From assembly GCA_903901225.1 (NCBI GenBank), contig CAIUQE010000009.1, forward strand, positions 1 through 57,731: a DNA stretch of 57,731 nt, given 5' to 3'. The translations under genes and the position numbers were made by a program. The notes below the pieces were generated by a model. It worked only from the letters and a program-made list of their open reading frames with translations. It was not told the origin of the DNA and did no database searches. Within the stretch, counting starts at the first letter, position 1. Every line of letters begins with the position of its first letter. The DNA is from Candidatus Omnitrophota bacterium. GTDB lineage: Bacteria; Omnitrophota; Gorgyraeia; Zapsychrales; Fredricksoniimonadaceae. This document shows, piece by piece, positions 18,101-21,100 of this stretch.

Positions 18101-21100
18101 TTAAACCCCCACCATCTCCTCTGCCTTGGCCTCCTCCGCTTTTGGCTCCTCGGCCTTTGCTTCATCAGCCTTCGGAAGCTCCTGCACCGGAACAGGTTCC
18201 TGCTTGTCACCCGTGAATTTCACCGAAACGACCTTGGATATCCCGCGCTGCTGCATGGTCACGCCATACATCACATCGGCGTTCGCCATCGTCTTTTTGT
18301 TATGGGTAATGACAATGAATTGCGAGATCTGCGCGAATTCCTTGAGGACTGTCGCGAACCGGCCCACATTCGCTTCATCAAGCGCGGCATCGATCTCGTC
18401 CAGGACGCAGAAGGGGCTGGGATTGACACGGAAGACCGCGAAAATAAGGGCAATGGCGGTCATGGTCTTCTCACCACCGGACAAAAGGCTTATGTTCTGC
18501 AGTTTCTTGCCGGGAGGACGGGCAATGATGTCAATGCCGGACTCCAGCGCGTTCTCGGGGTCCAGGAGAACCAACTGGGCCTCGCCCCCGTTAAAGAGAA
18601 CCTTGAAATATTCACGGAAGCGATCGTTGACCTTGACAAAGGTCTCGACAAAAAGCTCCCGGGTCGTCTTGTTGATCTTGCGGATGGTCTGTTCCAGGGA
18701 TGTCTTGGCTTCCAGAAGATCGCTCTGCTGTTGCGTCAGGAACTGGAAACGGCCCTTAAGGTCTTCAAACTCTTCAATGGCAAGAAGATTGACGCCGCCG
18801 TAAGAATCGCAGCGCTTCCCAAGGACGGCGATCTCCTCTTTGAGCGCCTCGATATCGAGCGCGGGCTGACCGACTGCCGCGCTTGGCTCACCTGTCTCAC
18901 CTGCGGCCGGAAGAAGGGCGATCGCGGCCAGATCAATGCTGTAACGCTGGAGCATGCGCTCTTTGACAGCCTGCTCCTGGAAGTCCAACTGCTGCCCGCG
19001 CATGGCCATCCCGTGGGCGCTGTCGCGCGCGTCACCGAGTTCCTTGCCCATCCCCGCGATCTCGGCGCGCAGGCTGCCGGTGCGCTGGGCCAGATCATTC
19101 TCTTCGGCTTCATAACGCCCGAGGGACTCCTTCAACTCATCCCTCTGGGCCCGCAAAGCGACCATGGAGCGCTCCAGCTGGGCAATGTCCTCGTGCAATT
19201 TCTGACGGCGCTCATCAAAAGAAGAAGCCTCCGTGTTCAGGCGGCTCATTTCATCCAGGTAACTGTTCAGCGAGGCACGGAACATCTCCAGGTTATCGCG
19301 CCACGACCGCTCACGTTCACGCATGGCATTGATCTCGGATTCGAACTGCGCCAATGCCACGGCCGCGTCTTCACGCTCCATGCGCCGGAGCTCAACATCC
19401 TCTTCACGGCTCCTGAGGCTTTCCTGCGTGCTCTTAAGATCCCCTTCCAGGATCGCCGCCTCACCCGTCAACCGCGCCTGGTCCGCATTCAGGCGAACCA
19501 GCCCCTCATCCGCTTCACGGATCTCGCCGTCGACAGCCGTGGACTCCTGGCGCAATTTCTCGGCCTCGGCGCTGATATCCTGCTGCTGGGACTCGCAAAC
19601 GGACAGGCGCATGTCCTGCGCGTGGATCTCACGGTTGAGCGCCTCAACACCGAGAGCTCGCTCCGTGATCAGCGTCTGCCTGGCATCACGCTGCTGGGCC
19701 ATGTCAGCCAGGCGGGCATCGATCGCCCCGATCTCACCGGCGATGGCCAGAGGGTCCAGTTCAACGAATTTTGTTTCGCAAATGATCTCGTAAAGACCGG
19801 ACGCATCCATGCCCTCAAGGTGACGGCGCAGATCATCCTGATGTTCAGGCGCGACGGGACGGACAGACTTCAATTTTCCGATAAACCCCGTGTGGCGGTC
19901 GGCGGGCGGGATCGGAGAAAAGAAATGCCCGGTCACGACGGGATCCGGCATGTCCTGGTACTGCACATGCAGCTTCTCGATAAATTCTTTCTGGGAGACC
20001 AGGAAAAGTTTTTTCCGTTCGAGGTCATTGATGGACGCGTTAAGGCCCGCGAACTCCTCCTGGACCGCGGCGAGCGCGGCTTTGGCATTCCCCTGCTCAG
20101 ACAGAAGTTCATCACGGCGGAGCATGATCACGCGGATACCCTCGGAAAGGCCGCTCAACCGGGACTCCACTTCGGAGCGCTCGCGCACGACCTTGGATTG
20201 CTCCAGGTCAAGGCGATGACGGCGGGCCAGATACCCCTCACGCTCCTTCATGATCTGTGTCAGTTCGTCCTTCATGGCGGAAAAACGGGCCGTCATCCGC
20301 AAGATATTCTCCTCGTCGGCACGCATCGACTGCTCATGTTCCTGGATCACGTTCACCAGGCCGGTGAGCGCCGTCCGCTTCTGGGTAAGTTCTTGCGACG
20401 ACGCCGTGAATTCGATGGAAAAATCCGCGAGAAGCTTCTCCAGCTCGGCGATCTTCGCCTCCTGCGCGGCGCATTTCACGACCAGCTGTTCTTTCTGTTC
20501 GGCAACGCGCTTCTCGTTCTGGGCAATGTTCTCCAGGCGTTCCTCGTTGAACCCGATCTGGCGGTTCGCCAGTTCGACCTGGTTCTCAAGCTTCAGTTCC
20601 TGGGAGCGGGATTCGTTCACCTTCTGGCCGATGTCCTCGAGCGCGAGCGTTTCACGTTCGACGACCTGGCGGAATTCTTCAAGGTCACGCACAAGGGTTT
20701 CTTCACGCTGCTTCAATTCACCGAGGGACTGCCCGATCCCCGCGCGTTCACGTCCGAGCGCGTCAAGCTGATGGAACGCATAGACCTGCTCGAGCCCCTT
20801 GAGCTTTTCGAACTCTTCCTTGTAGCGCTTGGCCTTGTGCGCCTGGCGCTCAAGGGAGGTGATCTGGCGTTTCACCTCGACAATAATGTCGTTGAGGCGC
20901 AACAGGTTGTCATCCGTCTCCTTGAGCTTGTTCGTGGCCTCGCGCTTCTTGGCCTTGTATTTTGTGATGCCGGAAGCCTCGTCAAAGATCACGCGCCGGT
21001 CATCGGGCTTGGCGCTCACGACCAGGTCGACCTTGCCCTGCTGGACCAGCGAATAAGCCTCGGCGCCGACCCCCGTGCCCATGAACGCCTCGACGATGTC

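What the first reader, a model, noticed from the sequence alone, without database searches (positions are those of the whole stretch)
19750..19960. SMC with an apparently miniaturised, non-canonical hinge
Seen: intact head motifs and both coiled-coil arms, but only about 70 aa between them (residues about 502-572, QYQDMPDPVVTGHFF...CETKFVELDP). I cannot find the usual hinge signatures (G..G.v..li.v, GR.tf.pl, vT.dG...gg..tGG). Established: the canonical SMC hinge is roughly 150-170 aa and is the dimerisation interface and DNA gate. The reading frame is continuous, so this is not a frameshift. Inference: a lineage-specific condensin with a different dimerisation module.
Basis: partly seen in the sequence, partly recalled or inferred. 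Interest (0 to 1): 0.72.

Follow-up and report, generated by a model that had tools for sequence, protein, structure and literature searches.

The report
SMC condensin with a miniature hinge
The only chromosome-organising SMC protein of this Omnitrophota bacterium, like those of a whole clade of its relatives, has its ~180-residue doughnut-shaped hinge replaced by a conserved ~65-residue beta-hairpin cap on arms of normal length, making it a natural test of what the hinge is needed for.

Summary
The ORF at window 18101-21466 (-), 1121 aa, is a bona fide bacterial Smc: TIGR02168 scores 883 bits against a cut-off of 567. It has no SMC_hinge (PF06470) match even at E<=10, and neither does the rest of the genome. 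This is the genome's only SMC; ScpA, ScpB and ParB are present.

Between conserved anchors the hinge segment is 81 aa (64-87 in relatives), against 190 aa (179-196) in canonical Omnitrophota Smc. The N-terminal arm is 325 aa in both.

It is not an assembly artefact:
- The same module is found in 82 of 301 sampled Omnitrophota genomes, including 29 of 29 in the window's order. Further diverged copies were found in five more families.
- On a tree built without the hinge columns, all mini-hinge Smc form one clade (SH-aLRT 99-100), so a single ancient origin fits.
- The module is as conserved as the ATPase heads.

AlphaFold (pLDDT 90.5) predicts helix, loop, beta-strand, short helix, beta-strand, helix. 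It has no significant PDB neighbour. Profile comparison suggests it is a remnant of the start of the ancestral hinge. That it dimerises through the hairpin is inferred, not shown.

Other Omnitrophota lineages have lost the hinge independently. Verdict: a new variant of a known kind, of moderately high interest.

The parts
18101..21466 (-). smc gene, 1121 aa; the genome's only SMC
   Evidence: Continuous ORF. TIGR02168 882.7 bits against a cut-off of 567.35. tblastn of the whole genome finds no second SMC.
20972..21466 (-). N-terminal half of the ATPase head (residues 1-165), with Walker A GPNGCGKSN
   Evidence: SMC_N and AAA_23 matches. Majority-residue conservation is 0.85 across 38 relatives.
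19955..20971 (-). N-terminal coiled-coil arm (residues 166-504), ending in the conserved junction SQKEFIEKLhvQY
   Evidence: The distance from anchor GITKYK to anchor SQKEF is 325 aa in all 75 mini-hinge and canonical Omnitrophota Smc compared. The AlphaFold helix runs to residue 504.
19754..19954 (-). Miniature hinge (residues 505-571): loop DMPDPVV...P..HT, strand beta-1, a short variable helix, strand beta-2
   Evidence: No PF06470 match. AlphaFold pLDDT 90.5. Conserved block in 78 or more homologues. Conservation of the flanking strands is 0.76-0.90.
19856..19888 (-). Strand beta-1 (residues 527-537), G-[IF]-I-G-K-V-K-x-V
   Evidence: AlphaFold strand E70-80 of the fragment. G527 is present in 47/50 and K531 in 46/50 sequences. 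It aligns with the G.xG.vadLi.V strand that opens the canonical hinge.
19820..19849 (-). Short helix inside the variable insert (residues 540-549); it is absent from the minimal family members
   Evidence: AlphaFold helix H83-92 of the fragment. The insert is missing in P0066, P0076, P0078 and P0079. Conservation of residues 536-558 is 0.26-0.32.
19763..19792 (-). Strand beta-2 (residues 559-568), Y-E-I-I-C-E-T-K-F-I, followed by E-L-D
   Evidence: AlphaFold strand E102-111 of the fragment. K566 is present in 50/50, E564 in 47/50 and C563 in 44/50 sequences, with Gly in the other 6.
18803..19753 (-). C-terminal coiled-coil arm (residues 572-888)
   Evidence: The AlphaFold helix starts at residue 572. 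Arm length is 304-318 aa (group medians) in all groups.
19556..19606 (-). C-arm motif S..EAQ..DI..E..KL (residues 621-637), conserved only in the mini-hinge clade
   Evidence: Conserved at >=60% in the 50 mini-hinge sequences but not in the 25 canonical ones. The N-arm stretch expected to pair with it (residues ~441-470) is poorly conserved, 0.27-0.31.
18212..18802 (-). C-terminal half of the ATPase head (residues 889-1085): signature LSGGEK, Walker B/D-loop, H-loop
   Evidence: SMC_N spans residues 3-1077. Conservation is 0.86.
18104..18211 (-). Low-complexity Lys/Ala/Glu-rich C-terminal tail (residues 1086-1121)
   Evidence: Read directly from the translation.
9119..9910 (-). scpB (263 aa), the kite subunit of Smc-ScpAB
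   Evidence: PF04079 181 bits at 9380-9874; ORF coordinates. scpA lies on another contig, G000:C2:21891-22529, PF02616 134 bits.
21517..21720 (-). Small HTH_17 DNA-binding protein gene, ending 50 nt upstream of smc (possible association; not shown to belong to the system)
   Evidence: PF12728 68 bits. It lies upstream of smc in 55 of 80 own-order loci and in several diverged mini-hinge families, but in none of the roughly 25 canonical-hinge loci examined.

Best explanation
This is the orthologous Smc subunit of an Smc-ScpAB condensin. In the ancestor of a large Omnitrophota clade, about 110 residues of the hinge were lost. What remains is a minimal cap of about 45-75 residues at the tip of the folded-back coiled coil: a Pro-rich loop, a two-stranded beta-hairpin (GIIGKVKxV and YEIICETKFIELD) and, in most members, a short variable helix in the hairpin turn. 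The arms and heads are unchanged.

The most likely mechanism is as follows. Two protomers are held together constitutively by pairing of their hairpins into a small shared beta-sheet or barrel. This supplies the one hinge function that is indispensable for loop extrusion, namely arm-tip dimerisation. The toroid and its central channel are given up, so any channel-dependent activity, such as the proposed single-strand 'bypass gate', would be lost.

What is shown:
- Smc identity.
- Absence of the PF06470 hinge.
- The size of the module, its conservation and its single origin.
- Unchanged arm length.
- The predicted fold.

What is inferred:
- Descent of the module from the first part of the ancestral hinge.
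- Dimerisation through the hairpin.
- Absence of a channel.
For: Identity as Smc:
- TIGR02168 scores 883 bits, above the 567-bit cut-off.
- It is the only SMC in a 95%-complete genome.
- ScpA, ScpB and ParB are present.

Hinge reduction:
- There is no PF06470 match in the protein or the genome.
- The hinge segment is 81 aa against 190 aa, with the N-arm identical at 325 aa and the C-arm medians at 304-318 aa.

Reality and age of the feature:
- 78 homologues have the same apex and none carries PF06470.
- 82 of 301 genomes of the phylum match the module profile, and this is essentially exclusive of the 171 that have PF06470.
- All 29 genomes of the window's order have the module.
- Diverged copies occur in families f17, f19, f26, f34 and f47.
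- On trees built without the hinge columns, all mini-hinge Smc form one clade with SH-aLRT 100 and 99.

Selection: the module's strands have majority-residue conservation of 0.76-0.90. The heads score 0.85 and the arms 0.47-0.57.

Fold: AlphaFold gives pLDDT 90.5 and pTM 0.68, with H(458-504), loop, E(527-537), H(540-549), E(559-568), H(572-621). Both faces of both strands carry conserved hydrophobic residues, as expected if one face is buried by a partner.

Descent: hhalign of the mini-hinge profile against the canonical profile gives 86-92% probability over the junction, the first strand and the following helix. MAFFT aligns [C/G]E[T/A]K[F/P]I.LD with the canonical G[RK]A.F[IL].L[DE].

Plausibility from the literature:
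- An unrelated dimeriser, the Rad50 zinc hook, can replace the B. subtilis Smc hinge and still support growth (PMC5344682).
Against: - No dimer prediction or experiment was possible, so hairpin-mediated dimerisation is inference only.
- The hhalign signal depends on including the coiled-coil junction. The core alone (residues 504-574) gives no significant match to the canonical hinge. A non-homologous replacement is therefore not excluded.
- Foldseek finds no significant neighbour. The first, shorter AlphaFold model was mediocre (pLDDT 72) and predicted a third strand that the better model does not show.
- The module carries few basic residues (median K+R of 7, against 21 in canonical hinges), so DNA binding at the apex may be weak or absent.
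- A clade-specific conserved C-arm motif and a conserved upstream HTH gene hint that other contacts or partners may contribute.
Confidence: 0.62

Rival explanations
1. The ancestral hinge was replaced by a non-homologous module, either newly evolved or acquired, that happens to sit at the same place. On this reading it is a truly different dimerisation domain, and not a remnant of the old hinge.
For: - The core alone (residues 504-574) has no significant profile-profile match to the canonical hinge.
- There are no Pfam or PDB sequence hits and no Foldseek hit to any SMC or MukB hinge among the 50 hits shown.
- The invariant motifs YQDMPDP and CETKF have no obvious canonical counterpart.
Against: - Once the junction is included, hhalign gives 86-92% probability, and the alignment runs past the junction through the G..G strand and into the next helix.
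- The module occurs nowhere outside this position of Smc. Only 31 clusters match among 1.84 billion representatives; every full-length hit to the whole module carries it at ~489-595 of a ~1080-1130-aa protein, and the rest are fragments or weak partial matches. No donor is therefore visible.
- Arm register and length are untouched, as expected for an internal deletion.
Confidence: 0.22
2. The apex is only a compact turn that closes the intramolecular coiled coil and does not dimerise. On this reading the two Smc protomers are held together by the heads and ScpA, by arm-arm contacts (for example the clade-specific C-arm motif), or by an extra subunit such as the upstream HTH_17 protein.
For: - Other Omnitrophota (a subclade of f15, and f51) have an apex that is only a short Gly/Ser/Pro loop and still keep an intact Smc. 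Smc without any apical domain therefore seems viable in this phylum.
- The C-arm motif at residues 621-637 is conserved only in the mini-hinge clade, and its expected intramolecular partner is not conserved.
- An HTH_17 gene lies upstream of smc in many mini-hinge lineages but in none of the canonical ones.
Against: - A mere turn would not need 45 or more residues conserved at the level of the ATPase heads across 17 or more families.
- Hydrophobic residues are conserved on both faces of the hairpin.
- The HTH gene is missing upstream of smc in several mini-hinge families, including f24, f29 and f37.
Confidence: 0.13
3. The short hinge is an artefact (an assembly deletion or mis-join) or marks a decaying gene.
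For: None was found.
Against: - The same architecture is seen in more than 90 independent assemblies from many studies, including a closed 3.36-Mb chromosome.
- The frame is open, the gene is single-copy, the heads are fully conserved and the partner genes are present.
- The module is under strong purifying selection.
Confidence: 0.01

Closest known systems
Canonical bacterial Smc of Smc-ScpAB (B. subtilis / T. maritima Smc; TIGR02168; hinge PF06470, PDB 1GXL)
   Same: - Heads, head motifs and arm length: about 338 aa from the head to the arm tip, compared with the 330 aa quoted for B. subtilis in PMC12647877.
- The partners ScpA and ScpB, and ParB.
- The protein scores above the TIGR02168 equivalog cut-off and nests phylogenetically inside canonical-hinge Omnitrophota Smc.
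   Different: The hinge toroid, about 180 aa between the anchors used here, is reduced to a hairpin cap of about 65 aa. PF06470 is not detectable. The second hinge half, with its Gly-rich dimer interface, is gone. Basic residues at the apex fall from a median of 21 to 7.
Channel-less hinges of MukB, Wadjet type II/III JetC and Acetobacter-group Smc (discussed in Liu et al. 2025, PMC12647877)
   Same: These are SMC-family motors that have given up the hinge doughnut and channel while still acting as SMC complexes.
   Different: According to that paper, those proteins tend to have much longer arms: 511-512 aa for the N-terminal helix in the Acetobacter group, against 330 aa in B. subtilis. The authors interpret this as compensation. 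Here the arms are exactly as long as in the canonical sister lineages. I could not fetch those proteins, so no direct sequence or fold comparison was made. Foldseek listed no MukB or JetC hinge among its top 50 hits.
Engineered B. subtilis Smc(Zh), with the hinge replaced by the Pyrococcus Rad50 zinc hook (Buermann et al. 2017, PMC5344682)
   Same: A small dimerising cap on full-length Smc arms is enough for growth. The Omnitrophota protein looks like a natural counterpart.
   Different: There is no CxxC motif. The module has a single Cys, which is Gly in 6 of 50 family members, and no conserved His. Zinc-mediated hooking is therefore excluded, and the cap is beta-structured.
Prefoldin subunits (PDB 2ZDI, 1FXK, 6NR8, 6VY1)
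   Same: The topology is shared: an antiparallel two-helix coiled coil capped by a beta-hairpin. In prefoldin the hairpins of neighbouring subunits assemble into a beta-barrel that holds the oligomer together. These were the top Foldseek hits.
   Different: The hits are not significant (E 0.14-2, TM 0.27-0.47). There is no sequence relationship. This is an analogy for how a hairpin cap could dimerise, not a family assignment.

Membership tests
Bacterial Smc (Smc-ScpAB condensin, TIGR02168 SMC_prok_B) | ABC-type head with Walker A, signature motif, Walker B/D-loop and H-loop, split between the N and C termini | tested here: met
   GPNGCGKSN, LSGGEK, CVLDEIDAALD and ITHNK are read in the translation. 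SMC_N scores 249 bits over residues 3-1077.
Bacterial Smc (Smc-ScpAB condensin, TIGR02168 SMC_prok_B) | Whole-protein score above the curated equivalog cut-off | tested here: met
   882.7 bits against 567.35. The match is split in two around the hinge.
Bacterial Smc (Smc-ScpAB condensin, TIGR02168 SMC_prok_B) | Two coiled-coil arms of about 300-340 residues | tested here: met
   The N-arm is 325 aa between anchors and the C-arm medians are 304-318 aa, as in the canonical relatives. AlphaFold predicts continuous helices on both sides of the apex.
Bacterial Smc (Smc-ScpAB condensin, TIGR02168 SMC_prok_B) | SMC_hinge domain (PF06470), the two-lobed toroidal dimerisation domain | tested here: not met
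   No match at E<=10 in the protein, none at E<=1 in the apex fragment, and none in the genome. The segment is 81 aa against 190 aa.
Bacterial Smc (Smc-ScpAB condensin, TIGR02168 SMC_prok_B) | Kleisin ScpA and kite ScpB encoded in the same genome | tested here: met
   PF02616 134 bits on contig C2. PF04079 181 bits in the window at 9380-9874.
Bacterial Smc (Smc-ScpAB condensin, TIGR02168 SMC_prok_B) | Orthology: single copy, nested among the Smc of related genomes | tested here: met
   There is only one SMC in the genome. On the tree the clade sits inside canonical-hinge Omnitrophota Smc.
Bacterial Smc (Smc-ScpAB condensin, TIGR02168 SMC_prok_B) | Constitutive homodimerisation at the arm tip | not testable with these tools
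   Only monomer structure prediction was available. It is inferred from the conservation and amphipathicity of the hairpin.
Rad50/SbcC-type zinc hook | CxxC motif at the apex of the coiled coil | tested here: not met
   There is a single Cys (C563), which is Gly in 6 of 50 members, and no second Cys or conserved His. Rad50 NCBIfam models score 59-84 bits, far below their cut-offs of 700-1087.
RecN | TIGR00634 equivalog score; short coiled coil with no hinge | tested here: not met
   36 bits against a cut-off of 408. The arms are full length.
Channel-less, long-armed Smc/MukB/JetC group (sensu Liu et al. 2025) | Loss of the hinge channel accompanied by markedly lengthened arms (N-terminal helix about 510 aa) | tested here: not met
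   The arms are identical in length to those of the canonical sister lineages. Absence of a channel is itself inferred from the module's size and fold and was not observed directly.

The most novel reading that the evidence does not exclude
A large, ancient clade of free-living or host-associated Omnitrophota runs a normal-armed Smc-ScpAB whose arm tips are joined only by a pair of beta-hairpins, with no hinge toroid or channel.

This would be a natural counter-example to the proposal that loss of the hinge 'bypass gate' must be compensated by longer arms. Taken together with at least two or three further independent hinge losses in the same phylum (a subclade of f15, f25 and f51), it would indicate that these small-celled bacteria have little need for the toroid.

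The co-conserved C-arm motif, the upstream HTH_17 protein, or both may be new parts of the apex.
Probability: 0.4. Interest if true: 0.75.

Novelty: new variant of a known kind. Interest (0 to 1): 0.62.

Why it matters
The hinge is one of the defining and most conserved features of SMC proteins, and what it is needed for is still debated. Proposals include dimerisation only, a DNA entry gate, and (Liu et al. 2025) a channel that lets single-stranded linkers pass so that the motor can bypass large obstacles.

Laboratory chimeras show that a foreign dimeriser can stand in for the hinge. Here evolution has run the same experiment in an otherwise orthodox Smc-ScpAB-ParB system and has kept the result through the diversification of 17 or more families.

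Because arm length is unchanged, the case separates hinge loss from arm lengthening, which co-occur in the channel-less SMCs discussed so far. The ~65-residue module is also a compact, portable candidate dimeriser. It can be tested directly in B. subtilis Smc with the established assays for obstacle bypass and chromosome folding.

I found no paper describing it: none of the three papers that mention Omnitrophota together with SMC and chromosome segregation is about it.

Tried and rejected
- **PDB sequence search.** The module profile against all PDB chain sequences gave only noise, E>=0.09.
- **First AlphaFold model.** The short fragment (residues 488-595) reached only pLDDT 72, and its Foldseek search was uninformative. 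A longer fragment with a more diverse alignment gave pLDDT 90.5.
- **Foldseek with the good model.** Nothing fell below E=0.1. The top hits were prefoldin subunits and V-ATPase stalk subunits, which I treat as analogy only.
- **hhalign of the core alone** against canonical hinges was not significant. The homology claim therefore rests on the junction-plus-first-strand alignment.
- **Zinc-hook idea.** Rejected because there is only one Cys and it is not invariant.
- **One genome with both hinge types (G079).** Its PF06470 hit lies on a 2.8-kb contig, in a partial SMC only ~30% identical to any Omnitrophota Smc. This is probably a binning contaminant.
- **Upstream HTH_17 gene as a strict correlate of the mini hinge.** Rejected as strict, because several mini-hinge families have etfA upstream instead.
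- **Comparison with Acetobacter Smc, MukB and JetC hinges.** I could not fetch these for a direct comparison.
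Full report
**What is there.** The window carries one long ORF on the minus strand, 18101-21466, encoding 1121 aa.

- The heads are orthodox. Walker A, the LSGGEK signature, the Walker B/D-loop and the H-loop can all be read in the translation.
- Pfam SMC_N scores 249 bits. The NCBIfam equivalog model for bacterial Smc, TIGR02168, scores 883 bits against a cut-off of 567.
- The TIGR02168 match is split in two stretches, and the first ends at residue 507.
- Pfam SMC_hinge (PF06470) is not reported even at E<=10, nor in the isolated 165-aa apex.
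- A six-frame search of the whole 2.38-Mb, 95%-complete genome finds no PF06470 anywhere. The same search finds it in 11 of 14 control genomes.
- tblastn shows that this is the genome's only SMC.
- ScpA (contig C2), ScpB (window ORF 9119-9910, minus strand) and ParB are present.

**How small, and what was kept.** I aligned 50 proteins with this apex and 25 canonical-hinge Smc from the same phylum, and measured segment lengths between the same conserved anchors.

| Segment | Mini-hinge, window's group | Mini-hinge, diverged families | Canonical relatives |
|---|---|---|---|
| N-arm (GITKYK to SQKEF) | 325 aa | 325 aa | 325 aa |
| C-arm (median) | 318 aa | 304 aa | 304 aa |
| Hinge segment | 81 aa (64-87) | 72 aa (65-86) | 190 aa (179-196) |

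About 110 residues are missing from the apex, and only from the apex.

**Not an artefact; a clade character.**

- A word-indexed search with residues 470-620 returned 78 proteins. Nearly all are 1075-1160 aa, those that carry a source name are labelled Omnitrophota or Omnitrophica, and none has PF06470.
- Across 301 genomes sampled from the phylum, 171 have PF06470 and 82 match a profile of the module. Only one genome has both. In that genome the PF06470 hit is a ~30%-identical partial SMC on a 2.8-kb contig, probably a contaminant.
- All 29 genomes of the window's order have the module.
- A scan of one genome per GTDB species found 91 loci. All are Omnitrophota apart from a few placeholder or evidently mislabelled titles, and one lies on a closed 3.36-Mb chromosome.
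- In 1.84 billion cluster representatives only 31 match. Every full-length hit to the whole module carries it at residues ~489-595 of a ~1080-1130-aa protein; the remaining hits are fragments or weak partial matches.
- TIGR02168 is present in 291 of the 301 genomes. Canonical proteins give one continuous match, and hinge-reduced ones give a split match.
- Following up 15 split cases that the module profile had missed showed that families f17, f19, f26, f34 and f47 have the same strand-turn-strand apex in more diverged form.
- On maximum-likelihood trees built with the hinge columns removed, all mini-hinge Smc form one clade. SH-aLRT is 100 with 57 rows and 99 with 66 rows, so a single change of state suffices. 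The clade is nested among canonical-hinge Omnitrophota Smc.
- The reduction therefore fits one ancient event that has persisted through at least 17 GTDB families.
It is no longer needed to exclude an assembly deletion.

**Selection.** Majority-residue conservation:

| Region | Conservation |
|---|---|
| Junction plus first part of the module | 0.76 |
| C-terminal strand of the module | 0.90 |
| ATPase heads | 0.85-0.86 |
| Arms | 0.47-0.57 |
| Central insert of the module | 0.32 |

The central insert is missing altogether in the smallest members, whose core is about 45 aa. In the window's own group (38 sequences) the invariant positions are S491, Q492, F495, I496, Y503, P507-D508-P509, P521, G530, K531, C563, E564, K566 and E569; only S491, F495, Y503 and K566 remain invariant once the diverged families are added.

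**Fold.**

- A first model of residues 488-595 was mediocre, with pLDDT 72.
- A model of residues 458-622, made with 48 sequences that include the diverged families, is confident: pLDDT 90.5 and pTM 0.68.
- In that model the N-arm helix runs to residue 504. It is followed by a 22-residue Pro-rich loop, strand 527-537, helix 540-549, strand 559-568, and the C-arm helix from residue 572.
- Both strands carry conserved hydrophobic residues on both faces, together with conserved Lys/Glu pairs.
- Neither the PDB sequence search nor Foldseek gives a significant neighbour.
- The best, non-significant Foldseek hits are prefoldin subunits. These are coiled-coil hairpins capped by beta-hairpins that assemble into a beta-barrel. 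I use this only as an analogy for how such a cap can hold chains together.
- No SMC hinge, MukB hinge or Rad50 hook appears among the 50 Foldseek hits shown.

**Origin of the module.**

- MAFFT places it on the first half of the canonical hinge. SQKEFIEKL aligns with SR.EFLEDL, HTGIIGKVKEV with G.xG.vadLi.V, and [C/G]E[T/A]K[F/P]I.LD with G[RK]A.F[IL].L[DE]. The second half is deleted.
- hhalign of the mini-hinge profile against the canonical profile gives 86-92% probability over the junction, the first strand and the following helix. The core without the junction is not significant.
- I therefore favour a deletion-derived remnant over a foreign replacement, but not strongly.

**Mechanism.** Smc-ScpAB needs an Smc dimer.

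- In B. subtilis the structurally unrelated Rad50 zinc hook can replace the hinge and still support growth (PMC5344682).
- The most economical reading is that the hairpin cap supplies constitutive arm-tip dimerisation and nothing else.
- A zinc-hook mechanism is excluded: there is one Cys and it is not invariant.
- That the cap lacks a channel follows from its size and predicted fold, but was not observed.

**Why it stands out among known cases.** Liu et al. list channel-less hinges in MukB, Wadjet II/III and Acetobacter-group Smc. They note that these go with much longer arms (about 511 aa against 330 aa), and suggest that a larger lumen compensates for the lost gate. Here the arms are not lengthened at all.

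**Wider pattern in the phylum.** Besides the mini-hinge clade, other Omnitrophota lineages have reduced the apex separately.

- A subclade of family f15 has Smc of 845-985 aa. Its apex is a short Gly/Ser/Pro loop, and about 70-80 residues of each arm are gone. Its f15 sisters keep a canonical hinge.
- Family f25 has another reduced form.
- Family f51, in a different class, has Smc of 810-821 aa.
- The tree places these outside the mini-hinge clade.
- Roughly 120 of the 291 Smc-bearing genomes sampled lack PF06470.

**Earlier notes from this scan.** Earlier, unverified notes describe hinge loss in Paceibacteria, Pacearchaeota, a marine gammaproteobacterium and archaeal SMC5/6-like proteins. I did not test those. 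They suggest that hinge loss recurs in small-celled lineages and that the solutions differ; here it is a beta-hairpin on full-length arms.

**Loose ends.**

- A C-arm motif, S..EAQ..DI..E..KL (residues 621-637), is conserved only in the mini-hinge clade, while its expected intramolecular partner is not conserved.
- A small HTH_17 gene ends 50 nt upstream of smc here. It is also upstream of smc in most own-order loci and in several other mini-hinge families, but in none of the canonical loci examined. It is absent from some mini-hinge families.
- Either could take part in the apex. Neither was tested.

**Verdict.** This is a new variant of a known kind, of moderately high interest to the SMC field.

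Noticed in passing
window 21517-21720 (-), and upstream of smc in L047-L126, L009-L011, L015, L018: A ~65-aa HTH_17 (PF12728, 68 bits) DNA-binding protein gene ends 50 nt upstream of smc. It lies upstream of smc in 55 of 80 own-order loci and in several diverged mini-hinge families. It is absent from all of the roughly 25 canonical-hinge smc loci examined, which often have etfA upstream, as do some mini-hinge families.
   Followed up: partly
L027 (G099) and L028 (G107); also ORFs of 1600-1812 aa in G025, G101, G187, G213, G249, G252, G279 (canonical) and G075, G115, G171, G289 (mini-hinge): Several Omnitrophota smc genes are 1600-1800 codons long. In L027 and L028 the cause is a large insertion of 370 aa or more in the head near the Walker A motif, with LAGLIDADG-like blocks, ending ...VHN|SN. 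It looks like a homing-endonuclease intein and occurs in both hinge types.
   Followed up: partly
window 19556-19606 (-), Smc residues 621-637: The C-arm motif S..EAQ..DI..E..KL is conserved only in the mini-hinge clade. The N-arm stretch that should pair with it in the coiled coil is poorly conserved, which hints at an intermolecular contact.
   Followed up: partly
L164, L166, L167, L169 (family f15); L170, L171 (family f51); L128 (family f25): These are independent and more radical Smc reductions in other Omnitrophota. The proteins are 810-985 aa, the apex is only a short Gly/Ser/Pro loop, and both arms are shortened. Sister genomes in f15 (L172, L173) keep a canonical 1216-1218-aa Smc.
   Followed up: partly
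L026 (G079:C23, a 2.8-kb contig): This is a partial SMC with a canonical hinge, only ~30% identical to any Omnitrophota Smc, in a genome that also has the mini-hinge Smc. It is probably a binning contaminant.
   Followed up: partly
window 18104-18211 (-): Smc ends in a low-complexity Lys/Ala/Glu-rich tail (KADEAKAEEPKAEEAKAEE) that lies outside the TIGR02168 match.
   Followed up: no
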